Below are positions 13,151-64,000 of a DNA stretch of 64,000 nt, in pieces. Position numbers and translations under genes: made by a program. This stretch comes from Patescibacteria group bacterium (lineage in GTDB: Bacteria; Patescibacteriota; Patescibacteriia; PEXW01), in assembly GCA_041665345.1 (NCBI GenBank), contig JBAYJA010000001.1, positions 329,206-393,205 of the forward strand, given 5' to 3'. The notes below the pieces were generated by a model, which was not told the origin of the DNA, did no database searches, and worked only from the letters and a program-made list of their open reading frames with translations. Each line of letters begins with the position of its first letter. Positions within the stretch are counted from its first letter, which is position 1.

Positions 13151-13155
13151 GCACT

Positions 13156-15204
13156 ATGCTAGCTAACATTGCTACACCACTGGGTTTCGTCGCGCTCCTC
13201 CTCCTCTTCACCGTTGGGGCTATCGGTGCTTTGCTCCTTCATCGGCATGACCACCGAGCGAATGTGTGGGGTAGTCTTTTCGCAATCGCTGGTTCGGTGT
13301 GGGGCGTGCTTTTCGCCATTGCGGTACTCGTGGGCGGAAATGACATTGCTGCGGCAGTGCAGCTTTCTCCTTTCCCTTTGTTCACCTTCTCCGTGCACAT
13401 CGACAAGCTTTCCGCTTTCTTCCTTGCGGTCATTTCGCTCATCGCGCTGTTCTCCTCTACCTATGGCATAGGCTACGTGAAGCACTACTACAAGCAGTAC
13501 AGCATTGGCGCCCTAGGTTTTTTCTACAACCTGTTCATCGCAGGCATGCTCCTGGTCGTTTCCGCGTCAAACGGGATTTTTTTTCTCGTCGCCTGGGAAC
13601 TCATGTCCCTTGCTTCGTACTTCTTGGTGGTGTACGACCGTAAGGATGCACAGAACGTGAAAGCCGGGTTCCTCTACCTGGTCATGACGCATGTGGGGAC
13701 GGCCTTCATTATCATCGCATTCCTCTTGCTCTATACCCACACTGGGTCGTTTGACTTTGCGGCTATAAAGGCTGGCGCCGTGCTCATCCCGGCATCTATG
13801 AAGAATGCTATTTTCATTCTGGCAATGGTAGGCTTTGGCACGAAGGCTGGCATCATTCCATTCCACATTTGGCTGCCGAGCGCTCACCCCGCGGCACCTT
13901 CACACGTCTCCGCCTTGATGTCTGGCGTGATGATAAAGACCGGCATCTTCATGATGATCAGGCTTTTCCTGGACATTCTCCAGCCTGTCCCGGCATGGTG
14001 GGGGCTGACCGTCGTGGTGATCGGACTTGTTTCGACATTGCTGGGCGTGCTCTACGCATTGACCGAGCACGATATTAAACGTTTGTTGGCGTACTCTAGT
14101 ATCGAGAATATTGGCATCATCCTCCTGGGCGTGGGGAGCGCCCTCACATTCACCGCTCTGGGCATGCAGCCCCTGGCGCTCATCGGCCTGGTTGCGGCGC
14201 TCTTCCATACGCTCAATCATGCAACATTCAAGTCCTTACTCTTCCTCAGCGCTGGATCAGTCATCAACCAGACACATACGCGCAATATGGAAGAGTATGG
14301 TGGGCTGATGAAATATATGCCACAGACAGCGTTGTTCTTTTTGGTTGGCGCAATGGCTATTTCCGCTTTGCCGCCCTTCAATGGTTTCTTCAGCGAATGG
14401 CTGACCTTCCAAGCACTTTTTCAGGGGATTGCGGCGTTAGATTTTTACGCAAAGTGGATTTTCATTCTTGCCGCTGGTTCTCTGGCATTCACCGGTGGGT
14501 TAGCATTAGCATGTTTTGTAAAAGCCTTTGGTGCAACCTTCCTGGCCCGGCCGAGGAGTATTGCAGTGACGCACACGAAAGAATCTTCCCTCTCCCTGCG
14601 TGTCGGTATGGCTGCCCTCGCAGTATTCGCCCTGGTGTTCGGCGTATTCTCCGGACGTCTAACTTCATTCCTCAATGGTGTTGGTCGTGACCTGCAGGTG
14701 TTTCATTCCTCGACCTCCTTCATTTCCATAAATACTCACCAAAATTTGTCGGCTGGGCATTTTGCCTTCGTGTCTCCACTTGCGCTCTTCGTCTACCTCC
14801 TCATTGCACTGGTCATCGTCGTGCTCGGGGTAAAGTACCTGGTGAACCGCAAGCAGAAAGTGCACCTTGGCGCCACGTGGGATTGCGGGACAGATTTGAG
14901 CCCGCGCATGGAGGTTACTGCTACCGGTTTTTCGCATTCTATTGTTACCATCTTTCAGCGAGTGCTCCGGCCCAGCATCCAGCACGACATTGAGTACCGT
15001 GATGACCAGAGTCGCTACTTGCCGAAATCCAGAACGGTGACGCTTGGGGTGAGCGATCTCTACCATACGTACATCTACAACCCAATTCACACATTAGTGA
15101 CTACTCTTTCCGAACGGACGAAGCATGTCCAAGGTGGGAATATCAACGTCTACCTCCTGTACATCTTCATTGCGCTGCTCGCCGCTCTCGTCGTGATTCG
15201 ATAA
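13156..15204 (+). CDS. NuoL/MrpA/HyfB-like antiporter-type membrane subunit
   Basis: 682 aa, about 16 TM, complex I subunit L/M/N family motifs (…GFGTKAGIIPFHIWLPSAH…). Confidence 0.8.
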   Translation: MLANIATPLGFVALLLLFTVGAIGALLLHRHDHRANVWGSLFAIAGSVWGVLFAIAVLVGGNDIAAAVQLSPFPLFTFSVHIDKLSAFFLAVISLIALFSSTYGIGYVKHYYKQYSIGALGFFYNLFIAGMLLVVSASNGIFFLVAWELMSLASYFLVVYDRKDAQNVKAGFLYLVMTHVGTAFIIIAFLLLYTHTGSFDFAAIKAGAVLIPASMKNAIFILAMVGFGTKAGIIPFHIWLPSAHPAAPSHVSALMSGVMIKTGIFMMIRLFLDILQPVPAWWGLTVVVIGLVSTLLGVLYALTEHDIKRLLAYSSIENIGIILLGVGSALTFTALGMQPLALIGLVAALFHTLNHATFKSLLFLSAGSVINQTHTRNMEEYGGLMKYMPQTALFFLVGAMAISALPPFNGFFSEWLTFQALFQGIAALDFYAKWIFILAAGSLAFTGGLALACFVKAFGATFLARPRSIAVTHTKESSLSLRVGMAALAVFALVFGVFSGRLTSFLNGVGRDLQVFHSSTSFISINTHQNLSAGHFAFVSPLALFVYLLIALVIVVLGVKYLVNRKQKVHLGATWDCGTDLSPRMEVTATGFSHSIVTIFQRVLRPSIQHDIEYRDDQSRYLPKSRTVTLGVSDLYHTYIYNPIHTLVTTLSERTKHVQGGNINVYLLYIFIALLAALVVIR

Positions 15205-15206
15205 CC

Positions 15207-16133
15207 GTGACCATTTTTTTCTCCATACTCCAGGCCATCCTCATTCCTGCACTCTCGCCGTTGGGTGTTGGCTTGGTGAGGAAGCTGAAAGCAAGGTTGC
15301 AGAACCGTCAAGGGGCAAGTGTCCTGCAGCCGTATCGGGATTTGTGGAAGCTTTTTCACAAAGATGAAATTATCAGCACTGACGCGTCGTGGATTTTTCG
15401 TTACGCGCCGTTCATCCTCTTCGCGGTTACCCTGGTGGTGAGCGCGAGCATCCCATTCCTCACGGCCATTCCCGGCAGCACATTGACGAGCGACGTACTG
15501 GTTGTCATCTACACCCTAGCCATTGGGACATTTTTCTTGGCCTTGGCGGGGATGGATACCGGTGGGCCGTTCGGCGGTTTTGGCGCCAGCCGCGAAATGA
15601 CCGTATCCGCGTTGGCCGAAGGTGGGCTTATTTTTTCGCTCCTCACCATAGCTTTGCGGAGCGGTACCACCGACCTTTTTGCCATGTCGAGCGCCTCACT
15701 CATCTCCACTACCAGCTCGTACGTGCCTGTGGCCATGGCATTTGTCGGCTTCTTCATTGTGCTGCTGGCGGAAACTGCCCGGTTTCCATTTGACAATCCA
15801 GCCACACACCTGGAACTCACCATGATTCACGAAGCCATGATTCTGGAACACTCTGGAAAGCGGCTGGCGCTCATGGAGTGGGCCTCAGCAAACAAGCTTC
15901 TCATCTTCCTCTCGCTGGGCGCAAACATATTCTTTCCTTGGGGCATCGCACATAGCTTTGGGTTCGCCGAAATGCTTGTGAGTATTTTGGTTTTTGCGGT
16001 CAAGATGCTCATACTCTACACAGCAATTGCAGTACTGGAGTCGAGCATTGCGAAATTTCGTTTCTTCCGCCTCCCTGATCTACTCATGGTTTCTTTCATT
16101 TTGAACAGTGTGGCTATCGCTTTTCTAAAATAG
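15207..16133 (+). CDS. NuoH/HyfC/HycD-like membrane subunit (GTG start)
   Basis: 308-aa polytopic protein with the complex I subunit 1 pattern; adjacent to antiporter-like subunits. Confidence 0.7.
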   Translation: MTIFFSILQAILIPALSPLGVGLVRKLKARLQNRQGASVLQPYRDLWKLFHKDEIISTDASWIFRYAPFILFAVTLVVSASIPFLTAIPGSTLTSDVLVVIYTLAIGTFFLALAGMDTGGPFGGFGASREMTVSALAEGGLIFSLLTIALRSGTTDLFAMSSASLISTTSSYVPVAMAFVGFFIVLLAETARFPFDNPATHLELTMIHEAMILEHSGKRLALMEWASANKLLIFLSLGANIFFPWGIAHSFGFAEMLVSILVFAVKMLILYTAIAVLESSIAKFRFFRLPDLLMVSFILNSVAIAFLK

Positions 16134-16134
16134 T

Positions 16135-16782
16135 ATGGACACTACCCCTGAGCAAATCCTCCTGACGATATTCTTCCTCACGATTGTGATGCTGCACATC
16201 GTGAAGAAAAACTCTGGCACAGCCATCCTCTACGGCCTACAATCTCTCACTGTCGTTCTGCTGCTCGTGCATACGTTTGCGGCTACCAGGGATATTTCCA
16301 TTCTCATTATTGCCGCCCTTCTACTTATTGTGAAAGTCATTCTTGCACCAAGTTTCTTCCTGCGTCTCATTCGGAAGCACGAGCTAAAATTTTCAGTCAG
16401 CACGTACGTGAACCTACCGTTGACACTTGTCATGGTAACCGTTCTGACAGCCATTGCGCATTCCCAGGTTTTTGGCCCACTCATCAACCACATCCCTGCC
16501 AATCAGCAGTACTTGTCCTTGTCCCTGGCTGCGCTGTTCATCTCTCTCTTCCTCATTGTGAATCGGAAGGGTGCGCTTTCACAAATTGTTGGCATCCTCT
16601 CGCTGGAGAACTGCATCGTTGCCTTTGCACTTTTTGCCGGTTTGGAGCAGTCACCCGCATTGCAAATTGGCGTCCTCTTCGACATTTCAGTGTGGATTAT
16701 TATTGCCAGCGTGTTCATCACCATGATTCACAGGCATTTTGGCACGTTGGACGTGACGGAAATGCGGCACTTAAAAGAGTAA
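16135..16782 (+). CDS. HyfE/NuoK-like membrane subunit
   Basis: 215 aa, 6-7 TM; size and position typical for hydrogenase-4 component E. Confidence 0.6.
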   Translation: MDTTPEQILLTIFFLTIVMLHIVKKNSGTAILYGLQSLTVVLLLVHTFAATRDISILIIAALLLIVKVILAPSFFLRLIRKHELKFSVSTYVNLPLTLVMVTVLTAIAHSQVFGPLINHIPANQQYLSLSLAALFISLFLIVNRKGALSQIVGILSLENCIVAFALFAGLEQSPALQIGVLFDISVWIIIASVFITMIHRHFGTLDVTEMRHLKE

Positions 16783-16786
16783 CCGT

Positions 16787-18229
16787 ATGGAATTGGCACT
16801 CATATTTATCCCACTTCTGCTTGCAACCGCAATTGGCCTGCTCATAAAACGCCAGCGGGTCATTGAGTGGGTTTCGGTTGTCGCAACCGTGGTCGCGTTC
16901 ACCGCAAGTCTCTTGGTCGCCCGCCAGGTGGCTGTGCGTGGTGTGTACGCGGTTGGACAATTTTTTTCGGTGGATGCCCTTGGCGCAATTGTCATGCTCA
17001 TCATTGCGTTCGTTGGTCTGGCGGTAACTGCATACGCGGTATTCTACCTTCGCACGGAAATGACACATGGGATCATCGGTTTTCGTCGGGTGCGCCAGTT
17101 GTACGTGTTGCTCAGTCTTTTCTTAGTGGCAATGTTTTTGGCAGCCACCTCCAGCAGCCCCATTTTTACCTGGCTATCTATTGAGGCCACCACGCTGGCT
17201 ACTGCGTTCCTCATTAGTTTCTACAACAAGCCCACCGCAATGGAGGCGGCCTGGAAGTACCTGATCATTAATTCCGTTGGTCTGCTACTGGCATTTTTTG
17301 GCACGCTGCTGTACCTCACGGTGCTGGAAGGTTCAGGTGGGGCAGATTTTCCAACCTGGAGCAGCCTCCTTGCGAATGCTGCACACCTTGACCCGTTGAT
17401 TGCGAAAATCGCTTTCGTCTTCGCGCTCATTGGCTACGGGACGAAGATGGGTTTAGCCCCAATGCACACCTGGTTGCCAGATGCGCATAGCAAAGCCCCG
17501 GTGCCGATTAGCGCGCTCCTCTCGGGTGTGTTGCTCAACGTTGCGTTCTTCGCAGTCATCAAGTGCAAAGGGGTTACTGACCTCGCCGTGGGTCCAGATT
17601 TTTCTCAGAAGCTCCTCATCGCGTTTGGGGTGCTGACGATTGGGATTGCCGCGCTCATAGTCGTCATCCAAAAAAATTACAAGCGTTTGCTGGCATACTC
17701 AAGCATGGAGAATATGGGGATTCTGGCGCTTGGGTTTGGCTTCGGTGGGCTTGGCATTTTTGCGGCACTGCTCCACACCTTGTACCATGCTCTCCTGAAA
17801 TCCGCCTTCTTCCTGACCGTGGGGAACGTTTTCCTGAAGTACGGCACCACGAAAATTCACCAAGTGCAAGGTGCCCTTCGGATCCTTCCGGTAACGAGTG
17901 TGCTCTTGCTCATTGGTTTCTTGGCCATTACCGGCGCGCCACCGTTTGGGATATTCTTTACGAAAATATACATTCTGTCCGCTGGTATGCAGCAGCACCC
18001 TTTCGTCAGCATCATCGTGTTGCTTTTCATGGCCGTGCTCTTCTACGGCTTCTTCAAGCACATTACCAGTATGGTGTTTGGTACGGCCCCAGCAGACATG
18101 CAACCAGGTCAGCAAAGCGCATGGCTCACAATTCCACCCCTTGTCCTCGTCGTCATTGCGCTCTACCTGAGCCTCCACCTGCCAGCATTCCTCAACACCC
18201 TCGTCCATGCAGCGGCGGCAAAATACTAG
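16787..18229 (+). CDS. NuoN/NuoM/HyfF-like antiporter-type membrane subunit
   Basis: 480 aa, proton-conducting membrane transporter family motifs (…GYGTKMGLAPMHTWLPDAH…). Confidence 0.8.
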   Translation: MELALIFIPLLLATAIGLLIKRQRVIEWVSVVATVVAFTASLLVARQVAVRGVYAVGQFFSVDALGAIVMLIIAFVGLAVTAYAVFYLRTEMTHGIIGFRRVRQLYVLLSLFLVAMFLAATSSSPIFTWLSIEATTLATAFLISFYNKPTAMEAAWKYLIINSVGLLLAFFGTLLYLTVLEGSGGADFPTWSSLLANAAHLDPLIAKIAFVFALIGYGTKMGLAPMHTWLPDAHSKAPVPISALLSGVLLNVAFFAVIKCKGVTDLAVGPDFSQKLLIAFGVLTIGIAALIVVIQKNYKRLLAYSSMENMGILALGFGFGGLGIFAALLHTLYHALLKSAFFLTVGNVFLKYGTTKIHQVQGALRILPVTSVLLLIGFLAITGAPPFGIFFTKIYILSAGMQQHPFVSIIVLLFMAVLFYGFFKHITSMVFGTAPADMQPGQQSAWLTIPPLVLVVIALYLSLHLPAFLNTLVHAAAAKY

Positions 18230-18230
18230 T

Positions 18231-19808
18231 ATGCACGAACTCTTACCAGCCATGGAAAAGTATATCCCAAACGGTACTCGAGCAACGCAATATGGGAACG
18301 CATCGGCATTTGCGGTTCCCGTCGGGGACATTGTTCGCGTTGCTACAGACTTGCAGAAACGGCATGGGTTGACCTTCAAGTGCATTACCGCGACTGACGA
18401 CCGAAACGAAGGTGGGGGATTTACCTTGTGGTACATTTTTAGTGCACGGAACGAGCAAGCATTCGTCATCCCATACATTACCCTGAAGGATACCGATGTA
18501 TTTCCTTCATTGGCGAAGGTCATGCAAAGTGCATGGAACTTTGAAAAGCGAATTCGAAGCTTCTTTGGCCTGCAACTGAGTGGTCATCCAGATGGTCGCC
18601 AAACTGTACTCCATGAGAATTGGCCCACGAATCTTTTCCCGTTACGAAAAGATTTTCAGTGGCAGACCCGTCCTGCAACTGCGCAGGGTGCGTACCCCTT
18701 CCAAGTAGTGGAAGGTGAAGGGATCTACGAAATTCCCGTTGGTCCTATTCATGCTGGGATTATTGAGCCGGGACACTTCCGCTTTAGCGTGGCCGGGGAA
18801 GAGATCGTGCTCCTGGAGCCACGGCTTGGGTTTGTCCATAAGGGCAGTGAAAAGCTTTTTGAGCAAGTCTCACTGGCGGACAAAGTCCGGCTTGCAGAAA
18901 AAATTTCTGGCGATAGTTCATTCAGTCACTCGCTAGCCTTCTGCCTAGCAGTGGAACAACTAGGGAATATCATCGTACCAGAACGAGCAAGTTACCTACG
19001 CGTGATCTTTGCTGAACTGGAGCGGCTGGCCAACCACTTTGGGGATATTGGCGCGATGATGCTGGATACGGGTTTTAACTTTGGTGGGAGTAACGGTGCT
19101 CGCCTGCGAGAAATGGTCATGCAGCTCAACGAGCGCTTAACCGGCAGTCGATTCTTACGTGGTACCAACGTGGTCGGCGGGGTCACCAAGGATATTGCTC
19201 ACGATGCGCAGCAGCAACTCGCGAGTGACTTGCAGGCCATGAAGGAGGATTTTGAGGAAGTTATTGCCATTGCGGAGGGCAGCGTTTCGCTCACCAACCG
19301 TTTGAAAGGTACGGGTGTTTTGACGAACGCCGTTGCTGCAGAGCACGGGATTGTGGGCGTGTCAGCTCGCGCAGCGGGGATTGCCATAGATACGCGCATT
19401 GACTTCCCATACGCGGCGTACGCGAAACTTACTCTTGGTGACATCCCAGTGGAGCAGGCTGGTGATGCTCACGCCCGATTCCAAGTTCGGATAGCGGAAG
19501 CGCGGTCCGCAATGGAGATCATCCAGCAAGCACTTCGGGCTCTGCCCGTCGGCCCCATCGTTACTTCAGTTAACCATGTGGTATTGCAAAAAAGTACCAT
19601 AGCCGTTAGCGCCGTTGAGGGCTGGCGCGGCGAAATTGTATACTTCCTCCAGACTGATACCCAGGGGAATATCAGCCGCGTTGCACCACGGGATCCGTCA
19701 ATCCTCAATTGGGTCGCATTGAGCCATGCTGGGGTAGGCAATGTGGTGCCAGACTTCCCGCTCATCAACAAGAGTTTTAACCTCTCGTACGCCGGGTATG
19801 ACTTGTAA
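18231..19808 (+). CDS. fused NuoC-NuoD / HycE-like large subunit lacking NiFe-binding cysteines
   Basis: N-terminal NuoC-like part (GGGFTLWYIF), then the large-subunit core (PVGPIHAGIIEPGHFRFSV...LGFVHKGSEKL). The L1 motif position reads ISGDSSFSHSLA instead of RxCGxCxxxH; the C-terminus (…KSFNLSYAGYDL) has no DPCxxC. Confidence 0.8.
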   Translation: MHELLPAMEKYIPNGTRATQYGNASAFAVPVGDIVRVATDLQKRHGLTFKCITATDDRNEGGGFTLWYIFSARNEQAFVIPYITLKDTDVFPSLAKVMQSAWNFEKRIRSFFGLQLSGHPDGRQTVLHENWPTNLFPLRKDFQWQTRPATAQGAYPFQVVEGEGIYEIPVGPIHAGIIEPGHFRFSVAGEEIVLLEPRLGFVHKGSEKLFEQVSLADKVRLAEKISGDSSFSHSLAFCLAVEQLGNIIVPERASYLRVIFAELERLANHFGDIGAMMLDTGFNFGGSNGARLREMVMQLNERLTGSRFLRGTNVVGGVTKDIAHDAQQQLASDLQAMKEDFEEVIAIAEGSVSLTNRLKGTGVLTNAVAAEHGIVGVSARAAGIAIDTRIDFPYAAYAKLTLGDIPVEQAGDAHARFQVRIAEARSAMEIIQQALRALPVGPIVTSVNHVVLQKSTIAVSAVEGWRGEIVYFLQTDTQGNISRVAPRDPSILNWVALSHAGVGNVVPDFPLINKSFNLSYAGYDL

Positions 19809-33406: not shown

Positions 33407-36400
33407 ATGCCCCTGTTGCCAACCCTGAACCCTGCCCAAAAGCAAGCGATAACCCACACGGCTGGGCCGCTTTTGATTGTGGCAGGCGCGGGCACGGGCA
33501 AGACGACGGTGGTGACCCAGCGCATTGCCTGGCTCATTACCGAGCAGAAGGTCAAGCCGGACCACATTCTGGCCCTCACCTTCACGGACAAGGCGGCTGG
33601 GGAAATGGAGGAGCGGGTGGACAAGCTGCTGCCCATGGGCTACGTGGATTTGTGGGTGAGCACGTTCCACAGCTATTGCGAGCGGGTGCTGCGGGACCAC
33701 GCCTTGGATATTGGTCTGAGCCCGGACTTCACTTTGCTGGATGAAACTGACCAAGCGATTCTGATGCGGGAGAATTTGGAGAAGTTTGAACTCAACTACT
33801 ACCGACCGCTGGGCAATCCCACCAAATTTGTGACGAGTTTGATTTCCCATTTTTCACGGTGCAAGGATGAAGCTATTCGACCTGAGGAATACTTGAAGTT
33901 TGCGGAGAAGGTGAAACTTGATTTGGATCAGGTGCATGGCCGCAAAAAGAAATCAGAGGATGATGCCGCGCAGATAGTAGAAGCGGAGAGGATAAACGAA
34001 GTAGCAAATGCGTATCATACATATCAACAGTTATTGTTTGAAAAAAGCTGCTTGGATTTTGGTGACCTTATCACACAGACGCTGTATCTGTTCCAGCAGC
34101 GGCCAAAGATTTTGCAGCGGTACCAGGAGCAGTTCCAGTACGTGCTGGTGGATGAATTCCAAGACACCAACTGGGCGCAGTACGAGCTGGTGAAGATGCT
34201 GGCCGCGCCCAAGAACAATTTGACCGTGGTGGGGGATGATGACCAGAGCATTTACAAATTCCGTGGCGCCAGCGTGGCCAACATTCTGGCGTTCAAGAAA
34301 GACTACCCCAAGGCAAAGGAAGTGGTGCTGACTGAAAATTACCGCAGCACGCAGAACATTCTGGATTTGGCGTATAAATTTATCCAGCACAATAATCCGA
34401 ATCGATTGGAAGTACAGATGCAGAGCCGTAAAGCCGTAAGCCGTAGAGCTGTAAGTTCTGAGGGGAAGAAGGGACAGGGGATAAGTAAAAAACTCGTCGC
34501 ACAGTCAGAAGACACTGGCGAAATTGGGGTGTGGCAAATGCCGACGTTGGAGCAGGAGGCGAGTGCGGTGGTGGAAAAAATAATCGAACTTAAGAAAAAA
34601 AATGCTGAGAGCTCGTACAATGATTTTGCCGTGCTGGTGCGCGCCAATGACCATGCCACGCCGTTTCTGCAGCGGCTAAAGGCGGCAAATGTGCCGTTCC
34701 AGTTTTTGGCCTCGGCTGGGCTGTACCGCCAACCAATTATTTTGGACATTCTGAATTACCTGAAGCTCTTGGACAACTACCACGAGACTGCGAGCTTGTA
34801 CCGGATTCTCACCTTGCCCTTGCTAGCCATTCCTTTGCCAGATGTGATGCACATGCTGGCAGTGGCCAAGCGGGAAACCAAGTCCTTGTTCGACATTACT
34901 AAGCAAGCGCGGGCGCTCACCAGTTTGCAGCCGGCCACCATTGCATCGGTGGAAATTTTGCACGGGTGGTTGGAAGCGCACAGCCAGCTGGCGCGCACGC
35001 AGCCAGTGGGGGAAGTCACCCTGAAGTTCTTGGAAGACTCCGGCATGCTGCAGCAAATTACCGGCACCACGGATGCGGAGCATTTGGAGCAGGTGGGTTT
35101 TGTGAACCAGCTCTTCCAAGTGTTCCACAGTTTCCAGAGCCGGCACGCAGACCCTACGGTGGCTAATTTTTTGCGGGAGCTGGCTTTTGCCCAGGATGCT
35201 GGCGATGCTGGAACACTCAAGCCCCCGGAATGGGAGCAGGGGCCAGAGGCCGTGAAAGTCATGACTGTGCACGGGGCTAAGGGCTTGGAATTTCCGTACG
35301 TGTTCATTGTGAATTTAGTGGACAAGCGTTTCCCAACCGTGGAGCGGCGCGAACCCATTGCCATACCAGATCCGCTGGTGCGAGAAAAAGTACCGGAGGG
35401 GGACTGGCATGTGCAGGAAGAGCGCCGGTTGTTTTACGTGGGTATCACCCGGGCCAAGCGCGGCGTCTTCTTCCTGATGGCGGAGGACTACGGCGGCAGT
35501 CGAAAGAAAAAGCCTTCGCGTTTCATTCCAGAACTCGGAGTGCAGATTGTGTCGAAGCAGGTCCAAGGCAAACTCACCGAAGCACCCACGCAAGCACCGG
35601 GCCGCGTGGATGATGATCACGCCTTGCTGCGCCAGGCCATTCCGGCGGCATTCAGCTTCACACAAATTAAAGCGTTTGAAAATTGCCCTAAGCAGTACAA
35701 GTACGCGCACCTGCTGAAAATCCCGGTGCCGGGCCACGCGTCTTTAAGCTTTGGCCAAACCATCCACAACACTTTGCTCAACTTCTTCAAACTGGCGCGG
35801 GAGCGGAGCATCACTGGCCAAGCAGATTTGTTTGGGACCAAGCCAACGGTCGCGTCAGACAAGCCAGCTGTGAGTTGGGCTGAGCTGCAAGAGTTGTACA
35901 AAGCCGCGTGGATTGACCAGTGGTATGCGAATGTGAAGCAGAAGCAGGAGTACAAGCAGCGCGGCGTGCAGTTTCTCAAAAACTTCTACGACAGTTTGCC
36001 CACGCCCTGGCCGCAGCCTGTGGAACTGGAAAAAGGTTTTACCATTGCCATTGGCGGGCACAAACTACGCGGAAAAATTGACCGCATTGACCCAGCCAGT
36101 GGGGGCATTGCCATTCTGGATTACAAGACCAGCGAGAAACCGCCAACGGATCCAAGCAAAGCAGACCTGGAGCAGCTTCACCTGTACGCCATTGCCGCGC
36201 GGGAAGCCCTGGGCAAAAATCCGGTGAGCTTATCGTACATCTACCTAGCCACGGACAAACCCTACACCTACCCAATTGATGAGGCAGCCATTGCGAAAAC
36301 TAAGGCCAAGGTGGAGGGGACCATTGCCGCAATCCTGGCTAGTAACTTCAAAGCCACCCCAGCCAAGCACATTTGCGACCACTGTGATTTCCGGAATATT

Positions 36401-36424
36401 TGCGAGGATCGGTGGCGGGGATGA
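33407..36424 (+). CDS. UvrD/PcrA-type helicase fused to a C-terminal PD-(D/E)xK Cas4/AddB-like nuclease (AddA/RecB-like)
   Basis: N-terminal LNPAQKQAITHTAGPLLIVAGAGTGKTT (helicase motif I), further UvrD motifs, C-terminal ILDYKTSEKP...HLYAIAA...CDHCDFRNIC (nuclease with Cys cluster). Confidence 0.85.
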   Translation: MPLLPTLNPAQKQAITHTAGPLLIVAGAGTGKTTVVTQRIAWLITEQKVKPDHILALTFTDKAAGEMEERVDKLLPMGYVDLWVSTFHSYCERVLRDHALDIGLSPDFTLLDETDQAILMRENLEKFELNYYRPLGNPTKFVTSLISHFSRCKDEAIRPEEYLKFAEKVKLDLDQVHGRKKKSEDDAAQIVEAERINEVANAYHTYQQLLFEKSCLDFGDLITQTLYLFQQRPKILQRYQEQFQYVLVDEFQDTNWAQYELVKMLAAPKNNLTVVGDDDQSIYKFRGASVANILAFKKDYPKAKEVVLTENYRSTQNILDLAYKFIQHNNPNRLEVQMQSRKAVSRRAVSSEGKKGQGISKKLVAQSEDTGEIGVWQMPTLEQEASAVVEKIIELKKKNAESSYNDFAVLVRANDHATPFLQRLKAANVPFQFLASAGLYRQPIILDILNYLKLLDNYHETASLYRILTLPLLAIPLPDVMHMLAVAKRETKSLFDITKQARALTSLQPATIASVEILHGWLEAHSQLARTQPVGEVTLKFLEDSGMLQQITGTTDAEHLEQVGFVNQLFQVFHSFQSRHADPTVANFLRELAFAQDAGDAGTLKPPEWEQGPEAVKVMTVHGAKGLEFPYVFIVNLVDKRFPTVERREPIAIPDPLVREKVPEGDWHVQEERRLFYVGITRAKRGVFFLMAEDYGGSRKKKPSRFIPELGVQIVSKQVQGKLTEAPTQAPGRVDDDHALLRQAIPAAFSFTQIKAFENCPKQYKYAHLLKIPVPGHASLSFGQTIHNTLLNFFKLARERSITGQADLFGTKPTVASDKPAVSWAELQELYKAAWIDQWYANVKQKQEYKQRGVQFLKNFYDSLPTPWPQPVELEKGFTIAIGGHKLRGKIDRIDPASGGIAILDYKTSEKPPTDPSKADLEQLHLYAIAAREALGKNPVSLSYIYLATDKPYTYPIDEAAIAKTKAKVEGTIAAILASNFKATPAKHICDHCDFRNICEDRWRG

Positions 36425-59033: not shown

Positions 59034-59909
59034 GTGCATAAACAGAAAGCTGAACAGCTTGACCAGCTCTGGGCGGAATTATTGAAGCGGGTTGCGACAG
59101 AGCGGCCACATTCGCTGTATCCCATTGTGCAAGTCATGGCTGGAGTACCTGCTTTGCGTCAGAGAGCTTGGAATTATTATGTTCAAGCAATCCAGGCAGC
59201 GCTTGGGCAAAATGCAGGTAACGCGAAGTCGCGTTATACTTGGTATCAAGCCATGTCCGTTGTTATGGCAAATGTACCAAGTTTATTCACTGCGGCGTGG
59301 AAATTGCTCCAGCCGAAGTGCACAAGAAGAAATCTCGTTCAGTTACTCATCAGGTTTGATAGCAAACTTGCTTTTCGGCAGGAAGTTTGGGATCGACTCA
59401 CAGGAAATCATCAGCTATCCAATCTTGAATGGTGGTTGATTATCCGCGGGTGTTCGCCAATGCGAGCTGAGGTGTGGAAGCATATCCCACCCAATTTCCC
59501 TAAGCGGAGACTCGTTAACCTTGTCAATGACGAACCTAGTCTGCGCAAAGTAGGTATGTCAGTGTTGTGGGAATATCATTTAAACAGCTATGAAGTTGCG
59601 CAGCTGCTTATCTACGATGCTAAAGGGAAATTACCGGGTGGTTGGCGACGACTGCGAGAGCTTCAGCCAAGTAAGAGCTTGCTATGGGATGTCATTCAGT
59701 GTGCACCGGGGTACAAAAAAAGTGCCGCGGCCCACCTGTTACGGAATTACAAGCTTACCCCAGACGAATTGCGTAATTTGCAATTGTTAGTTCCGGATCT
59801 GCGTAAAAAAATTTCATCGCGACTTCCAAAAGCAAAAACTCCAACAAAGCCGAAGCGTACTTCCATGAGTATCGCTACGGAGATAATCAAGATTAGTAAC
59901 AGTGCGTAG
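59034..59909 (+). CDS. hypothetical helical protein
   Basis: AAGGAGGAAG RBS plus GTG; 291 aa, basic C-terminus. Confidence 0.45.
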   Translation: MHKQKAEQLDQLWAELLKRVATERPHSLYPIVQVMAGVPALRQRAWNYYVQAIQAALGQNAGNAKSRYTWYQAMSVVMANVPSLFTAAWKLLQPKCTRRNLVQLLIRFDSKLAFRQEVWDRLTGNHQLSNLEWWLIIRGCSPMRAEVWKHIPPNFPKRRLVNLVNDEPSLRKVGMSVLWEYHLNSYEVAQLLIYDAKGKLPGGWRRLRELQPSKSLLWDVIQCAPGYKKSAAAHLLRNYKLTPDELRNLQLLVPDLRKKISSRLPKAKTPTKPKRTSMSIATEIIKISNSA

Positions 59910-61051: not shown

Positions 61052-64000
61052 ATGCCAGAACCAGTCAATCCAGCGCCGCAGAAGCGCGCAACCGCCGTTC
61101 GCACGCAGACCCCAACGAACACGGTTGTTCGGTCGTCGCTCCTCCTCATGACTGTGGCCGCCACGGTGAGTGCTGGCGTTTTGCTGGCCGCTTTGGTCAT
61201 TCAGTCTTTGCCTAAGCGAGTGTTTGAAGTCAAGAAAGTTGCGGCGGTGACGTCGCCTGCGGGGTATGAAGGGAATATTCTCTTGGTGAAATTTGCAGAT
61301 GCAAAATTAACAGACAAGCAACGGCTATCGGCTGTGAATGCCGCCCTGAAAAAGCCTGTGCAATGCACGCGAACGGAGACAGTGCGCGTGCGCCAAGGGT
61401 GGCGAAGAGTGAATAAGCAGGTGGACGTCAGTTACAACTGCACCGTGAAAGTGCAGCGCATGACGCCCGTAGTTCCAGCCAAGGAAGCAAGCACCGTATT
61501 GGCAGCGAACCGAGCAAGCAAAGTTGAGACAGCCGCTGCGAAGACTGCATATGCAACGCTACAACAGTACAGCATTATTACTCTCACCGGGACGCGGGTG
61601 AACGTTCCTTCAGCCATTGCGGTGTTGAAAGCAGCAGGTATTACCGCAGACGCAAATGGTGCCATGGGTATTGCAGCCTTGGCCAGCGATCCACGGGTTA
61701 CCTCAGCCTTGCAGACGTTGGGAGTAAGTGATGCGCAGACAAACGCCTATGGGGTGCAAGGCGATGCAAATGGCGATGGTGGCCTGACCTGGGCTGACCC
61801 AGAAGTGATGGTGCAGTACATCTTCAATGGTGGTGCCGCACCAACGAATCGCACTGGGGCAGATATGAATGCAGACGGTTTGCTGAATATCAGCGACGTT
61901 GTGCAGATGGTGCAGTCCTTGGTTGCCACTATGTCCGCGCCAAATGATTTGACTAGCGATGCGAAAGTGAACATGGATGACGTGCACTTCCTGCAGCGGT
62001 ACATCTTCAGCAATGGTGCGGCGCCAGTTCCCTTGGCAAGCGCAGACTACTCTGCTGATGGACAGGTGAACGTTTCCGATCTCGTGGGGTACGGGGTGTA
62101 CGTGCAAACCCATCCCGCGGCTCCTGTTGCTGCTTGCACCCGGGGTGACGCAAACGCAGATGGAAAAGTTGACCTCGCAGACGTCACAGCAATTTCTGAT
62201 TACATCTTCCAAGGTGCAACGCTGGCTGGTCTGCCTTGCGCTGACGTCAATAGTGATGGCAAGGTGAATATTAGCGACGCGGTTGCATTGGTTGCCTTAC
62301 TCCAAAATCCAGTTGCGACAACGCAAACCAATGGACGTTCTGCAGTACTTGGCGACACAATTCCTGCAACCGACACGCCCACAGATGGTGATCCTGGGTA
62401 CCTCCTGGGTGATGTTGATGCATCGAACCGAGTGAACAGCCAGGATGTCACCGCTCTTCTCAATTACATATTCCAAGGCGCGGCAGCGCCCAGCCCCTTG
62501 GCCCGCGCGGATTTGAATAGTGATGGACTGGTGAACATTTCCGACGGTGTAACACTAACCAATCTGATTTCTGCGAGCCAGAAAAACCGCTGCCAGGTTG
62601 CAGACCTGAACAATGATGGCCAGGTTGACGCGAAAGATCCATCCGTTATTGTTGACTACATTTTCAGTGGCGGGGCTGCTCCTGACACCACGAAAGCGGA
62701 TATTGATAACGATGGCCGCATTACCATAAGTGATGCTGTGGCGCTGACGAACTGCATTCAGCTAGCCGCAGCACCCCTTGCTGATTACAATAAAGTAAAC
62801 ACCAATGGTGCAGGGACGGAATTTTTGTTAGGTGATGCAAACAACAATGGTGCACGGAATTTGGATGATGCACAGTACATCATTGATTACATTTTCAACA
62901 ATGGCTCCGCGCCGGTGCCTATGGAAGCTGGTGACATTGATGGCAACGGGATAGTCAATATTAGCGACGTTGTTGCCTTGGTCAACCTTCTAGATATTCT
63001 GGCCAATAATCCAGCTGACCTGCCCGTGCTCTACGGTGATGCCAACAAAGATGGCGCGGTGGACAGCAAGGATATTGAAGCGCTTACTGCAGCGTTGATT
63101 GCCAAGCAGACAGACGCACAATTGGATGTGAATCGAGATGGGAAAGCCAATATTGTAGACGCCTACTACTTGCCCCAGCTTCTGAATGTTGACGGCGCAT
63201 CAAAGCCATTGCCTGACGTGAATGGTGACGGCAAGGTGAATTTTGGTGATGTGGATTACCTTTTGGCATACATTTTTGCTGGTGGTCCTGCGCCTGCCAA
63301 TATGAGTACGGCTGACGTGAACGGTGATGGTAAGGTGAACATTAGTGATGTTGTCGCAATCACCAATGCGCTGACGCAACAAGGCGTTCTGCAGTACATG
63401 ACCGGTGATGCAAACCGAGACGGACAAGTGACAATGGCTGACGCGCAGTACCTCATTGCCTACATTTTTGCCGGCGGCCCTGCACCAGACCCACTGCTCC
63501 GCGGTGACGTCAGCGGCGATGGCGCGGTGAATATTACGGACGTGGTGATCCTGGTGCAGCGTTTCAACCAAGTTCTCGCACCCGTGGGAACCCCAGAAGC
63601 CTCGGTTGCCGTGCTGGATACGGGCGTGAAAACCAGTGGCACGGTGCTGAAAGCAGCTGCTGTGACCACAAAGGATATCCCCGGTAATAAGAAGGACGAC
63701 GATAAGAACGGGTACGTTGATGATGCGTACGGTTGGAATACCTTGGTGGCTGGTGGCTCCACGATGGATACCAATGGGCACGGTACCACGGTCGCTACGG
63801 CGATTCTCCAAGTCGCACCAAAAGCACAAATTCTGCCGGTCGCAGTATTAGATCGGTCGGGTATGGGTACCTGCTTGTCGGTCGCGCGCGGGCTCATCTA
63901 CGCCACGCAGCAAGGTGCTGACGTCGCCAACATCAGCGCCAGCGGCAAGGGAACCTGCACGCTTCTGAGCGATGTTGCGGTGTACGCGCAAGCGCGAGGC
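61052..64000 (+). CDS. secreted subtilisin-like (S8) serine protease with about nine tandem dockerin-type modules (3' end outside window)
   Basis: N-terminal signal/anchor; repeated modules GDANxDGxVxxxD...YIFxGGAAP...ADxNxDGxVNISDVVAL (paired Ca-binding loops typical of type I dockerins) about 9 times; then S8 catalytic Asp (VAVLDTGV) and His (DTNGHGTTVA) regions; ORF runs off the window. Confidence 0.75.
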   Translation, partial: MPEPVNPAPQKRATAVRTQTPTNTVVRSSLLLMTVAATVSAGVLLAALVIQSLPKRVFEVKKVAAVTSPAGYEGNILLVKFADAKLTDKQRLSAVNAALKKPVQCTRTETVRVRQGWRRVNKQVDVSYNCTVKVQRMTPVVPAKEASTVLAANRASKVETAAAKTAYATLQQYSIITLTGTRVNVPSAIAVLKAAGITADANGAMGIAALASDPRVTSALQTLGVSDAQTNAYGVQGDANGDGGLTWADPEVMVQYIFNGGAAPTNRTGADMNADGLLNISDVVQMVQSLVATMSAPNDLTSDAKVNMDDVHFLQRYIFSNGAAPVPLASADYSADGQVNVSDLVGYGVYVQTHPAAPVAACTRGDANADGKVDLADVTAISDYIFQGATLAGLPCADVNSDGKVNISDAVALVALLQNPVATTQTNGRSAVLGDTIPATDTPTDGDPGYLLGDVDASNRVNSQDVTALLNYIFQGAAAPSPLARADLNSDGLVNISDGVTLTNLISASQKNRCQVADLNNDGQVDAKDPSVIVDYIFSGGAAPDTTKADIDNDGRITISDAVALTNCIQLAAAPLADYNKVNTNGAGTEFLLGDANNNGARNLDDAQYIIDYIFNNGSAPVPMEAGDIDGNGIVNISDVVALVNLLDILANNPADLPVLYGDANKDGAVDSKDIEALTAALIAKQTDAQLDVNRDGKANIVDAYYLPQLLNVDGASKPLPDVNGDGKVNFGDVDYLLAYIFAGGPAPANMSTADVNGDGKVNISDVVAITNALTQQGVLQYMTGDANRDGQVTMADAQYLIAYIFAGGPAPDPLLRGDVSGDGAVNITDVVILVQRFNQVLAPVGTPEASVAVLDTGVKTSGTVLKAAAVTTKDIPGNKKDDDKNGYVDDAYGWNTLVAGGSTMDTNGHGTTVATAILQVAPKAQILPVAVLDRSGMGTCLSVARGLIYATQQGADVANISASGKGTCTLLSDVAVYAQARG

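What the first reader, a model, noticed from the sequence alone, without database searches (positions are those of the whole stretch)
61052..64000. Subtilase preceded by about nine tandem dockerin-type modules
Enzymes destined for cohesin-bearing scaffolds normally carry one dockerin. Here roughly nine consecutive modules of about 55 aa each precede the S8 catalytic domain. Each has two Ca-binding-loop-like segments (DxNxDGxVNxxD) and a conserved YIFxGG[AP]AP linker. Either the protein binds many cohesin-like partners (a reverse scaffoldin), or the modules are a lineage-specific Ca-binding stalk.
Basis: partly seen in the sequence, partly recalled or inferred. Interest (0 to 1): 0.6.

Follow-up and report, generated by a model that had tools for sequence, protein, structure and literature searches.

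The report
Subtilase carrying nine inserted dockerin modules
An uncultured ultra-small bacterium (Parcubacteria) encodes a membrane-anchored protease with exactly nine calcium-binding "dockerin" docking modules spliced into it, probably to fasten the protease by many equal contacts to an unidentified surface partner.

Summary
The ORF from 61052 runs off the window. An identical 1.07-Mb contig supplies the full 1088-aa protein. Pfam finds nine Dockerin_1 stretches (229 bits) and Peptidase_S8.

The modules do not simply precede the enzyme. The layout is N-terminal membrane anchor, subtilase prodomain, first helix of the mature enzyme, nine dockerins, then the catalytic core. The array is therefore a loop insertion. 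Metagenomic relatives carry one dockerin at the same site, and it is most like module 9.

All 12 full-length family members (34-91% identity) have exactly nine modules, with positional orthology and conserved spacing. Only about seven 50%-identity clusters exist among 1.84 billion proteins.

Within each protein, the residues matching the cohesin-contact face of canonical dockerins are alike across modules but differ between lineages (IS, IG, IL, LS, IA). The symmetric face shows no such pattern. Serine codons there come from both codon families, which argues for protein-level selection. This favours nine like-specificity binding sites over a passive stalk.

No cohesin was found, but only about 170 kb was examined. 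Tandem dockerin arrays and double-dockerin S8 proteases are already described, so this is a new variant of a known kind.

The parts
61052..64000 (+). Subtilase gene carrying nine dockerin modules. It is truncated by the window end. The full gene is 3264 nt plus stop (1088 aa) and would end at about 64318.
   Evidence: Open frame. Full length read from L001:6531-9797(-), which is 100% identical over the overlap. The exact protein is NCBI MFA6042080.1 / MFA6473645.1, 'dockerin type I domain-containing protein [Patescibacteria group bacterium]'.
61052..61210 (+). Basic cytoplasmic tail (aa 1-27) and one transmembrane helix (aa 28-53). I read it as a signal anchor.
   Evidence: The sequence itself. 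AF2 predicts a helix at 29-51. The segment is conserved across the family and in the single-dockerin relatives. That it is an anchor and not a cleaved signal peptide is an inference from the 27-residue n-region.
61214..61681 (+). Subtilase prodomain (aa 55-210). It is an alpha/beta fold with an inserted beta-hairpin that carries a conserved Cys pair.
   Evidence: hhalign against the N-terminal regions of single-dockerin S8 relatives gives 99.1% probability, E=7e-19, over 208 columns. Of 17 aligned N-terminal regions, 12 match Pfam Fervidolysin_NPro-like (best E 2.8e-8) and 10 match Peptidase_S8_N. The AF2 domain model has pLDDT 86-96 over residues 20-150. The target sequence alone does not reach these Pfam models.
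61697..61756 (+). First helix of the mature subtilase (aa 216-235, TSALQTLGVSDAQTNAYGVQ). It corresponds to the WGLxxIxAxxAW motif.
   Evidence: It aligns to ...DLWGLKAIxxxxAWDxxYAxRG of the relatives, directly before their dockerin. Family member P0008 keeps ...YALAQMHVDDAWDEV.
61757..61936 (+). Dockerin module 1 (aa 236-295)
61940..62119 (+). Dockerin module 2 (aa 297-356). Its first Ca loop is degenerate.
62141..62317 (+). Dockerin module 3 (aa 364-422). It has a conserved Cys pair and is followed by the longest linker in the array (29 aa).
62405..62584 (+). Dockerin module 4 (aa 452-511)
62597..62773 (+). Dockerin module 5 (aa 516-574)
62828..63007 (+). Dockerin module 6 (aa 593-652)
63032..63199 (+). 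Dockerin module 7 (aa 661-716). It is short and atypical, with no YIFxGG motif. It is positionally conserved in the family members compared, except P0008.
63209..63388 (+). Dockerin module 8 (aa 720-779). It shows the strongest orthologous signal in several comparisons.
63401..63580 (+). Dockerin module 9 (aa 784-843). It is the module most like the single inserted dockerin of relatives and is probably the ancestral insert.
63599..64000 (+). Catalytic core of the S8 subtilase, window part (aa 850-983). Asp856 lies at 63617-63619 and His910 at 63779-63781. Asn992 and Ser1042 lie beyond the window.
   Evidence: Pfam Peptidase_S8. Alignment to AK.1 protease and subtilisin BPN' places strand beta1 VAVLDTG opposite BPN' residues 26-34. 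Triad table across the family.

Best explanation
The gene encodes a pro-subtilase of a narrow Parcubacteria (Patescibacteria) lineage.

Shown:
- The chain order is N-terminal membrane anchor, subtilase prodomain, first helix of the mature enzyme, nine type-I dockerin modules, then a minimal S8 catalytic core.
- The core has an intact Asp-His-Ser triad and oxyanion Asn. It lacks the loop that forms calcium site A in subtilisin BPN'.
- The dockerin array is an insertion in a surface loop of the subtilase fold, around BPN' residues 20-26. It grew from a single inserted dockerin still seen in relatives.
- The number, order and spacing of the nine modules are fixed across the family.

Inferred:
- The N- and C-termini of a dockerin touch each other. 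The nine modules should therefore hang as pendants around the protease and should not form a rod.
- Autocatalytic removal of the prodomain would cut the enzyme loose from its membrane anchor. The Ca2+-folded dockerins would then hold it in place.
- Most modules of one protein share a lineage-specific residue code on the face that canonical dockerins use to contact cohesin in one of their two binding orientations. The array would then offer up to nine equivalent sites for one kind of partner. The partner could be a repeated or oligomeric cohesin-like protein, or another envelope component, on the bacterium's own surface or on a host cell. Many equal sites would give high-avidity tethering of the protease.

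The gene forms a conserved cassette with a 39-44-aa single-pass membrane peptide and, usually, a stand-alone C39 cysteine-peptidase domain. The roles of both are unknown.
For: Architecture:
- Pfam finds 9 Dockerin_1 stretches and S8. The full-length protein came from an identical contig.
- The N-terminal region aligns with TM-prodomain-helix regions of S8 relatives at 99.1% probability, E 7e-19.
- 12 of 17 such regions hit Fervidolysin_NPro-like and 10 of 17 hit Peptidase_S8_N (P0025 scores 28 bits against a cut-off of 21).
- Relatives P0025, P0036, P0039, P0045, P0057, P0063, P0065, P0073 and P0094 read ...WGLKAIxAxxAWDxxYAxRG-[one dockerin]-VxIAVxDTGVD. Their dockerin is most like module 9.
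- The core aligns to BPN' from residue 26 on, and the top PDB hits include the 266-aa loop-deleted BPN' variants.

Fixed array:
- All 12 full-length members (34-91% identity) have exactly 9 modules.
- Scores are highest between same-position modules in comparisons with P0002-P0007.
- Periods are conserved at about 61, 65, 82-97, 64, 76, 65-69, 51-63 and 64 aa.

Binding face (column-wise shuffle test):
- Within-protein identity exceeds shuffled orthologs at segment-2 loop positions 9, 11, 13 and 14 (z = 6.7, 13.8, 6.6, 10.5) and at segment-1 positions 20-23 (z = 5-8.5).
- The symmetric positions show nothing (segment 1 p9-11 z <= 2; segment 2 p21-22 z <= 1.4).
- Motifs per lineage are NISDVV (target), NIGDAI (P0005, 8 of 9 modules have Gly at p11), NILDLT (P0015, 6 of 9 have Ile-Leu at p10-11), DLSDLS (P0006, P0016) and DIADVT (P0007).
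- These positions largely coincide with the mode-I cohesin contacts L22, R23, N44, S45 and T46 of the C. thermocellum Xyn10B dockerin (PMC5864761).
- Ser at p11 is encoded by both AGY and TCN codons in the target and in P0008. That argues for selection on the protein and against gene conversion.

Non-catalytic value of the array: P0002 and P0003 (81% identical to each other, from different sources, JGI and Logan) have Gln for the catalytic His yet keep all nine modules.

Pendant geometry: the dockerin termini form a clasp in all intact structures (PMC3821032).

Cassette and synteny: the sites with upstream sequence and annotation lie next to miaA, and all six lie upstream of thrS. The micropeptide starts 3-17 nt after the stop in 6 of 6 contexts. 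C39 is present in 5 of 6.
Against: - No cohesin (Pfam PF00963) or other candidate partner was found. Only the larger and predicted-secreted proteins of the 64-kb window were scanned against Pfam. The roughly 100 kb of flanks of related loci was checked only through precomputed Pfam annotations. The rest of the about 1.07-Mb genome could not be scanned.
- The shared code could equally reflect module-to-module packing inside a compact array.
- In the P0006, P0007, P0015 and P0016 clade, several of modules 6-9 depart from the shared code. Not all nine sites need be equivalent.
- The shuffle test assumes that the nine-fold duplication predates the lineages. That is supported by positional orthology, but only weakly for P0008.
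- The full-length AF2 model is poor (pLDDT 63.7, pTM 0.43) and gives no information on the arrangement of the modules.
- The target's own N-terminal region does not reach any prodomain Pfam model. The domain model has no significant Foldseek match in the PDB (best E 0.36).
- Autoprocessing, release from the anchor and protease activity are all untested.
Confidence: 0.5

Rival explanations
1. Passive calcium-stiffened spacer. In this reading the nine modules bind no partner. They only hold the catalytic domain away from the membrane, or add bulk and stability in a Ca2+-rich environment.
For: - No cohesin was found in the sequence examined (and the locus tables).
- The best-conserved columns are the Ca ligands and core hydrophobics.
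- The organism has a small genome, and the locus holds no cellulosome-type carbohydrate-active enzymes.
Against: - A spacer should tolerate changes in copy number, yet all 12 members have exactly nine modules with conserved spacing.
- A spacer does not predict lineage-specific uniformity confined to one helix face that coincides with the canonical cohesin-contact positions (PMC5864761).
- Dockerin termini are adjacent (PMC3821032), so tandem dockerins add little length per module.
- The array is a loop insertion whose two ends must both meet the S8 fold.
- After prodomain removal the array would no longer connect the enzyme to the membrane.
Confidence: 0.15
2. Self-packing regulatory array. 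In this reading the nine modules pack on one another, as the two modules of the C. thermocellum double dockerin do. They form one compact Ca2+-dependent body that controls folding, activation or substrate access of the protease. The shared residue code would then be an internal packing interface.
For: - The two dockerins of dDoc_0689 form a stable interface (PMC12484212).
- Fixed number, order and linker lengths are what a defined quaternary-like arrangement requires.
- Both ends of the array must return to the same point on the S8 surface.
- Coordinated change of the same position in many modules is expected for a repeated internal interface.
Against: - The homogenised positions match the outward cohesin-binding face of known dockerins (PMC5864761).
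- The His-to-Gln members keep the array, which is hard to explain if its only role is to regulate catalysis.
- AF2 gave no confident inter-module arrangement (pTM 0.43), although the alignment was shallow.
Confidence: 0.2
3. Host-surface adhesin-protease. In this reading the dockerin-like modules bind glycans or envelope polymers of a host or prey cell instead of a cohesin. The protease would then act on the host surface during an episymbiotic life.
For: - Dockerin arrays in ultra-small, host-dependent bacteria have been proposed as adhesins: a nine-dockerin giant ORF in Omnitrophota (PMC10066038) and the dockerin-type giant proteins (bioRxiv 10.1101/2023.11.21.568195).
- An essential dockerin-domain envelope protein in a Saccharibacterium was proposed to target host glycans (PMC10633639).
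- A Parcubacteria protein joins 12 dockerins to what its source annotates as a peptidoglycan-binding protein (P0021).
- The protein evolves faster than its syntenic neighbours (40% identity against 46-66%).
Against: - No dockerin has been shown here, or in the papers read, to bind a glycan directly.
- The lineage-specific code sits on the protein-protein interface of canonical dockerins.
- Nothing in the data identifies a host.
Confidence: 0.15

Closest known systems
Double-dockerin S8 protease of Clostridium thermocellum (dDoc_0689; PDB 8X39/8X3A)
   Same: A subtilase family S8 enzyme joined to more than one type-I dockerin in tandem. The review reads it as anchoring a protease to a cell-surface cohesin and not as part of the cellulose-degrading enzyme set (PMC12484212). 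Two modules of the target match the 8X39 chain over both of its dockerins (E 0.0097).
   Different: The clostridial protein has two modules, not nine, and its organism has a full cellulosome with known cohesins. In the target the array is inserted between the prodomain plus first helix and the catalytic core. The organism is a roughly 1-Mb Patescibacterium with no cohesin identified. I could not read the primary paper, so the domain order of the clostridial protein was not checked.
Single-dockerin-insert S8 proteases from metagenomes (P0025, P0036, P0039, P0045, P0057, P0063, P0065, P0073, P0094)
   Same: They share the membrane anchor, the prodomain, the WGLxxIxAxxAW helix and a dockerin at the identical insertion point before VAVxDTG. 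Several also share the Y[IL]FxGGxAP motif. Their dockerin is closest to module 9.
   Different: They have one dockerin, not nine. The catalytic domain is larger and, at least in P0025, keeps the calcium-site-A loop region. Several carry long C-terminal FG-GAP/beta-propeller regions. Their organisms are unnamed in the sources.
Tandem dockerin arrays in non-cellulosomal proteins of ultra-small or uncultured bacteria (Omnitrophota giant ORFs; Parcubacteria P0021)
   Same: Arrays of 8-33 dockerin modules in predicted extracellular proteins. One published case has exactly nine (PMC10066038). They have been proposed to mediate adhesion.
   Different: None of those examined is joined to an S8 protease. 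Among the 160 proteins retrieved, only this family combines nine dockerins with S8. For those arrays nothing has been reported on fixed copy number or positional orthology.
Calcium-loop-deleted subtilisin BPN' (delta75-83, e.g. PDB 1DUI, 1GNV, 1SPB chain S)
   Same: Apart from P0008, the family members aligned lack the segment corresponding to the site-A calcium loop between the catalytic His and strand e3. The engineered 266-aa BPN' variants are among the best PDB matches.
   Different: The deletion here is natural. Calcium dependence has in effect moved to the up to 18 dockerin loops. Identity to BPN' is low, and the match is partial for the first 60 residues of the core.

Membership tests
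Type I dockerin (Pfam PF00404) | Profile match above the curated threshold | tested here: met
   229.2 bits against a cut-off of 22.9, with 9 stretches. P0008 scores 223.6 bits. EF-hand_7 reaches only 49 bits, and no thrombospondin type 3 family is among the hits listed.
Type I dockerin (Pfam PF00404) | Duplicated segment of about 22 residues: a 12-residue Ca-binding loop (D1, D/N3, D/N5, D12) followed by a helix, two per module | tested here: met
   17 of 18 loops are found by a loose loop pattern, and 15 fit the strict D1, D/N3, D/N/S5, D12 pattern. D1 and D12 are nearly invariant in 108 modules. AF2 predicts helices after each loop.
Type I dockerin (Pfam PF00404) | Closest solved structures are dockerins | tested here: met
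   Best PDB sequence matches are 2Y3N_B, 4FL4_A, 1DAQ, 2MTE, 1OHZ_B and 2CCL_B.
Type I dockerin (Pfam PF00404) | Ca2+-dependent binding to a cohesin module | not testable with these tools
   This needs binding assays. Indirect support comes from a lineage-specific code on the positions equivalent to the mode-I cohesin contacts (PMC5864761).
Cohesin-dockerin (cellulosome-like) system | A cohesin-bearing partner encoded in the same genome | tested here: inconclusive
   No Cohesin hit among 20 large or predicted-secreted window proteins, nor in the precomputed Pfam annotation of about 100 kb around six related loci. Most of the 1.07-Mb contig could not be read.
Cohesin-dockerin (cellulosome-like) system | Association with carbohydrate-active enzymes or a polysaccharide-degrading lifestyle | tested here: not met
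   The neighbours are housekeeping genes (gatB, tmk, thyX, miaA, thrS, dnaE) in the loci with annotation. No glycoside hydrolase was seen in the window proteins scanned.
Subtilase, MEROPS family S8 (subtilisin-like) | Catalytic Asp, His and Ser in that order, plus the oxyanion Asn, in the motifs DTG, HGT, GTS and GN | tested here: met
   Asp856, His910, Asn992 and Ser1042. They are intact in 10 of 12 family members. P0002 and P0003 have Gln for His.
Subtilase, MEROPS family S8 (subtilisin-like) | Profile match above the curated threshold | tested here: met
   Peptidase_S8 scores 47.2 bits against a cut-off of 21.8 on the window-truncated domain. The PDB best match is AK.1 protease at E 7.9e-18.
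Subtilase, MEROPS family S8 (subtilisin-like) | N-terminal prodomain (intramolecular chaperone/inhibitor) ahead of the mature enzyme | tested here: met
   Met through homologues: hhalign 99.1% to the relatives' N-terminal regions; 12 of 17 aligned regions hit Fervidolysin_NPro-like and 10 of 17 hit Peptidase_S8_N. The target alone is below threshold, and Foldseek against the PDB is not significant.
Subtilase, MEROPS family S8 (subtilisin-like) | Autocatalytic removal of the prodomain, and proteolytic activity | not testable with these tools
   This requires expression and N-terminal sequencing.
Stand-alone C39 peptidase (neighbour gene) | Pfam Peptidase_C39 above threshold, with the Cys motif | tested here: met
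   With a GTG start the product is MPYRHQEREDSCGPACVQMLL..., scoring 54 bits against a cut-off of 22. It lies outside the window, on L001.

The most novel reading that the evidence does not exclude
The nine inserted dockerins would be a fixed-valency docking device with a lineage-specific recognition code, read through a single binding orientation. In each Parcubacteria lineage the code would co-evolve with one partner that is not a canonical cohesin, for example a repeated envelope or host-surface protein. This would give a cohesin-dockerin-like 'species code' working in host attachment or surface organisation of ultra-small episymbionts, entirely outside polysaccharide degradation. The strict number nine would then reflect the stoichiometry or symmetry of that partner.
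Probability: 0.2. Interest if true: 0.75.

Novelty: new variant of a known kind. Interest (0 to 1): 0.5.

Why it matters
How Patescibacteria organise their surface and hold on to partners is largely unknown, and dockerin domains in them have only been noted in passing. This family offers a compact, testable case.

- It is a protease whose nine docking modules have a fixed number and order.
- The modules carry a shared, lineage-specific code on the face that classical dockerins use for cohesin.
- The code predicts which residues of an unknown partner should co-vary, which gives a computational handle for finding that partner.
- It shows that a dockerin can be used as a loop insertion inside an enzyme fold and then multiplied there. 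That is of interest for protein engineering with cohesin-dockerin parts.

If the array turns out to be a self-packing or passive element, the finding is a curiosity of domain architecture.

Tried and rejected
- Rfam and tRNA scans of the window, run to place the organism, found nothing.
- Tandem Repeats Finder found no DNA-level repeat, so the array is not a recent expansion.
- My first reading was that 'DAQTNAYGV' equals the mature N-terminus AQSVPYGV of BPN'. I dropped it once hhalign placed it on the ...AWDxxY... end of the first helix.
- The conserved R-x-K-R-like motif in the prodomain (RAKR in several members, RASK in the target) looked like a processing site. It lies in a family-specific insert with no counterpart in the relatives, so I make no claim about it.
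- The full-length AF2 model was too uncertain to read domain packing (pLDDT 63.7, pTM 0.43). Coordinates are not exposed in any case.
- Foldseek of the N-terminal domain model against the PDB gave only generic alpha/beta plaits at E >= 0.36.
- A profile search of the PDB with the N-terminal alignment found nothing relevant.
It was rerun with the 91%-identical P0001.
- Orthologous conservation of helix-surface positions is not higher than paralogous conservation. This rejects the idea that each module has its own conserved specificity, and it led to the shared-code result.
- The genome-collection scan returned mostly unrelated S8 domains. The S8 genes of cultured Minisyncoccus archaeiphilus and of another Patescibacterium have no dockerin insert.
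- Chen et al. 2024, Peer et al. 2009 and Carvalho et al. 2003 are not in the held library.
- No whole-genome cohesin search was possible.


Full report
**1. The observation.**
The +1 frame from 61052 is open to the end of the window (983 codons). Pfam reports Dockerin_1 at E=3.8e-69 (229 bits, cut-off 22.9) in nine stretches. It reports Peptidase_S8 at 47 bits, and weaker EF-hand models overlap the dockerins. NCBIfam hits are to dockerin-containing models only.

A look-up of the neighbouring miaA product returned four contigs. One is a 1,075,605-bp ENA contig that is 100% identical to the window over the 14,055 nt they share. It supplies the missing 105 codons, so the product is 1088 aa. The exact protein is in NCBI as 'MAG: dockerin type I domain-containing protein [Patescibacteria group bacterium]'. 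The window is therefore from a Parcubacteria/Patescibacteria genome.

I place nine modules at residues 236-295, 297-356, 364-422, 452-511, 516-574, 593-652, 661-716, 720-779 and 784-843. A loose Ca-loop pattern finds 17 of the 18 loops, and 15 fit the strict ligand pattern. Module 7 is short and lacks the YIFxGG motif.

There is no DNA-level repeat, and modules are 21-55% identical to each other.

**2. Where the array sits.**
Residues 1-53 are a basic tail plus one TM helix. Residues 55-235 have no Pfam match of their own.

An exhaustive HMMER search of 1.84 billion representatives brought in a set of S8 proteins: P0025, P0036, P0039, P0045, P0057, P0063, P0065, P0073 and P0094. They read: TM helix, ELLVKF...VEYAEPNY...SWGQxYxDLWGLKAIxAxxAWDxxYAxRG, one dockerin, VxIAVxDTGVD....

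- A profile-profile comparison of the target family's N-terminal regions with theirs gives 99.1% probability, E=7e-19, over 208 columns. It aligns the target's ...LQTLGVSDAQTNAYGVQG with ...LKAINIERAWDEIYAQRG.
- Of the 17 aligned N-terminal regions, 12 match Pfam Fervidolysin_NPro-like (best E 2.8e-8) and 10 match Peptidase_S8_N. P0025 passes the curated cut-off.
- An AF2 model of the region is confident for residues 20-150 (pLDDT 86-96). It has no significant PDB neighbour.
- The catalytic core aligns to AK.1 protease and subtilisin BPN' from BPN' residue 26 on (VAVLDTG opposite VAVIDSG). His, Asn and Ser fall in their motifs.

The chain order is therefore anchor, prodomain, first helix of the mature enzyme, nine dockerins, catalytic core. 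The array occupies the loop that in ordinary subtilases links the WGLxxIxAxxAW helix to strand beta1.

The single dockerin of the relatives scores best against module 9 and then module 8. This fits growth of the array from one ancestral insert next to the core.

Apart from P0008, the family members aligned also lack the segment that forms calcium site A in BPN'. Engineered loop-deleted BPN' variants are among the best PDB matches.

**3. A small family with a fixed design.**
The word-indexed search found eight full-length homologues of 1073-1107 aa at 34-91% identity, labelled Patescibacteria or Parcubacteria where named. The exhaustive search added three more, plus fragments. Only about seven 50%-identity clusters have the full architecture.

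- All 12 full-length sequences have exactly nine modules.
- Module-by-module scores are highest between same-position modules for most modules in comparisons with P0002-P0007, less so with the most distant member, P0008.
- The spacing pattern is conserved at about 61, 65, 82-97, 64, 76, 65-69, 51-63 and 64 aa.
- Among species-representative genomes, at least two carry it. One is a Ca. Parcubacteria MAG. The other is a third-party MAG labelled Gammaproteobacteria, which is almost certainly a mislabel. The scan method finds close relatives only, so two is a lower bound.
- The gene is syntenic. Every site with upstream sequence and annotation lies next to miaA, and all six lie upstream of thrS. 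It evolves somewhat faster than its neighbours (40% identity against 46-66%).

**4. Evidence on function.**
*(a) A shared, lineage-specific residue code.* I aligned all 108 modules to one profile and compared conservation between orthologues with conservation between the nine modules of one protein. Surface positions are not better conserved among orthologues. At some positions the nine modules of one protein are more alike than orthologues are.

I then ran a column-wise test. It shuffles orthologues among proteins within each module position.

| Region | Positions | z |
|---|---|---|
| Segment 2, start of helix 3 | 9, 11, 13, 14 | 6.7, 13.8, 6.6, 10.5 |
| Segment 1, end of helix 1 | 20-23 | 5.0-8.5 |
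| Segment 1, symmetric positions | 9-11 | <= 2.0 |
| Segment 2, symmetric positions | 21-22 | <= 1.4 |

A few other columns also exceed z = 4 (segment 1 positions 2 and 13, and three linker columns), but less strongly.

In sequence terms, the segment-2 loop reads as follows:
- NISDVV in the target, and similar Ile/Val-Ser forms in P0008 and P0017
- NIGDAI in P0005 (Gly at position 11 in 8 of 9 modules)
- NILDLT in P0015 (Ile-Leu at positions 10-11 in 6 of 9)
- DLSDLS in P0006 and P0016
- DIADVT in P0007

The C. thermocellum Xyn10B dockerin contacts cohesin in binding mode I through L22, R23, N44, S45, T46 and R53 (PMC5864761). In my numbering these are segment-1 positions 21-22 and segment-2 positions 9-11 and 18. 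The homogenised positions largely coincide with that face. Segment-2 position 10 is weaker (z 3.8) and position 18 is not significant.

In the target and in P0008, the Ser at position 11 is encoded by both AGY and TCN codons. The uniformity is therefore maintained at the protein level, not by gene conversion.

*(b) Members without the catalytic His.* P0002 and P0003 are 81% identical to each other and come from different sources (JGI and Logan). Both have Gln in place of the catalytic His, yet both keep all nine modules.

*(c) Module geometry.* In all intact dockerin structures the N- and C-termini touch (PMC3821032). A dockerin can therefore sit in a loop, and tandem copies add little end-to-end length. 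This is established knowledge applied here by inference.

**5. Most likely mechanism.**
Steps shown: the architecture, the fixed nine-module design, the intact triad and the shared code.

Steps inferred:
- The pro-enzyme is exported and held by its N-terminal helix.
- The prodomain is removed autocatalytically, as in other subtilases, which severs the link to the membrane.
- The Ca2+-folded dockerins then tether the enzyme through up to nine like-specificity sites to one kind of partner.

I give this about 0.5. The rivals are a self-packing regulatory body (0.2), a passive calcium-stiffened spacer (0.15) and direct binding to host envelope polymers without a cohesin (0.15).

The main weakness is that no partner was found. 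No Cohesin domain appears among 20 large or predicted-secreted window proteins, nor in the precomputed annotation of about 100 kb around related loci. Most of the genome was out of reach.

**6. Gene neighbourhood.**
- A 39-44-aa single-pass membrane peptide starts 3-17 nt after the stop codon in all six contexts examined. The consensus is ...TK[VI]GI...LGV..GYA.Y.GGF...
- A stand-alone C39 peptidase domain follows in five of six. In the target's genome it needs a GTG start to include its Cys motif, and it then scores 54 bits.
- The roles of both are unknown.

**7. Comparison with what is known.**
Double-dockerin S8 proteases exist in C. thermocellum. The first module of one prefers a cell-surface cohesin, and triple to septuple dockerins are noted in other cellulosome producers (PMC12484212). 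Two modules of the target weakly match the solved double dockerin 8X39.

A nine-dockerin giant ORF in Omnitrophota was proposed to be an adhesin (PMC10066038), as were the dockerin-type giant proteins (bioRxiv 10.1101/2023.11.21.568195). A dockerin-domain envelope protein is essential in a cultured Saccharibacterium (PMC10633639).

In my own search, proteins with 8-33 tandem dockerins are frequent among the top hits. One is a Parcubacteria protein with 12. Many dockerins in one protein is therefore not new.

What is new here:
- the loop-insertion topology inside a subtilase
- the strictly conserved number and order of the modules
- the one-sided, lineage-specific code

I found no paper on dockerins of Parcubacteria.

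**8. Verdict.**
This is a real feature, correctly spotted, and a new variant of a known kind. Interest is moderate at 0.5. The architecture and the co-variation pattern would catch a specialist's eye and they give a concrete route to the partner. The function remains inferred.

Noticed in passing
window 2616-3407 (+): A heliorhodopsin gene (Pfam PF18761, 336 bits, full-length match) in this Patescibacteria genome.
   Followed up: no
window 12611-19808 (+): A cluster resembling a membrane-bound group-4 [NiFe]-hydrogenase or a complex-I module. It comprises a NuoB-like subunit (12611-13150), two antiporter-like Proton_antipo_M subunits (13156-15204 and 16787-18229) and a fused 30-kDa + 49-kDa subunit (18207-19808). 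This is unexpected in a lineage usually described as lacking respiratory chains.
   Followed up: partly
L001 6391-6525 (-), just beyond the window end; also L005 13226-13360, L007 10736-10870, L008 8119-8253, L076 5658-5792: A conserved 39-44-aa single-pass membrane peptide starts 3-17 nt after the stop of the protease gene in all six genomic contexts. Most copies end in GYAxYxGGF followed by two more residues. No family match.
   Followed up: partly
L001 5898-6359 (-), beyond the window end: A stand-alone C39 cysteine-peptidase domain protein lies downstream in 5 of 6 contexts. In this genome the gene callers start it at an ATG that cuts off the catalytic Cys motif. A GTG start 18 codons upstream restores it (Peptidase_C39, 54 bits).
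   Followed up: partly
P0002 and P0003 (family members from other samples): The catalytic His of the subtilase is replaced by Gln (ETGQGSS) in two sequences that are 81% identical and come from different sources (JGI and Logan). Asp, Asn, Ser and all nine dockerins are kept. These may be pseudo-proteases.
   Followed up: partly
L009 (CAZBMC010000009.1): The genome-collection record holding the 90%-identical orthologue is titled 'uncultured Gammaproteobacteria bacterium'. The gene content and the other records point to Patescibacteria, so the taxonomic label of that third-party MAG looks wrong.
   Followed up: no
L001 1150-2298 (+), also L008 12880-14073 (-): A protein of about 380-400 aa with a Baseplate_J-like match sits directly next to dnaE (weak in L001, above the listing threshold in L008). 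L005 and L007 have an unannotated 415-417-aa protein in the same position. This is an odd neighbour for a replication gene.
   Followed up: no
window 59034-59909 (+): A 291-aa protein lies between gatB and miaA with no Pfam match. It is present in this genome's contigs (L001-L003) but absent from the syntenic position in L005 and L008.
   Followed up: no
window 33407-36424 (+): A 1005-aa UvrD-type helicase fused to a PD-(D/E)XK nuclease (AddA/PcrA-like). It is ordinary and is recorded only as part of the window survey.
   Followed up: no
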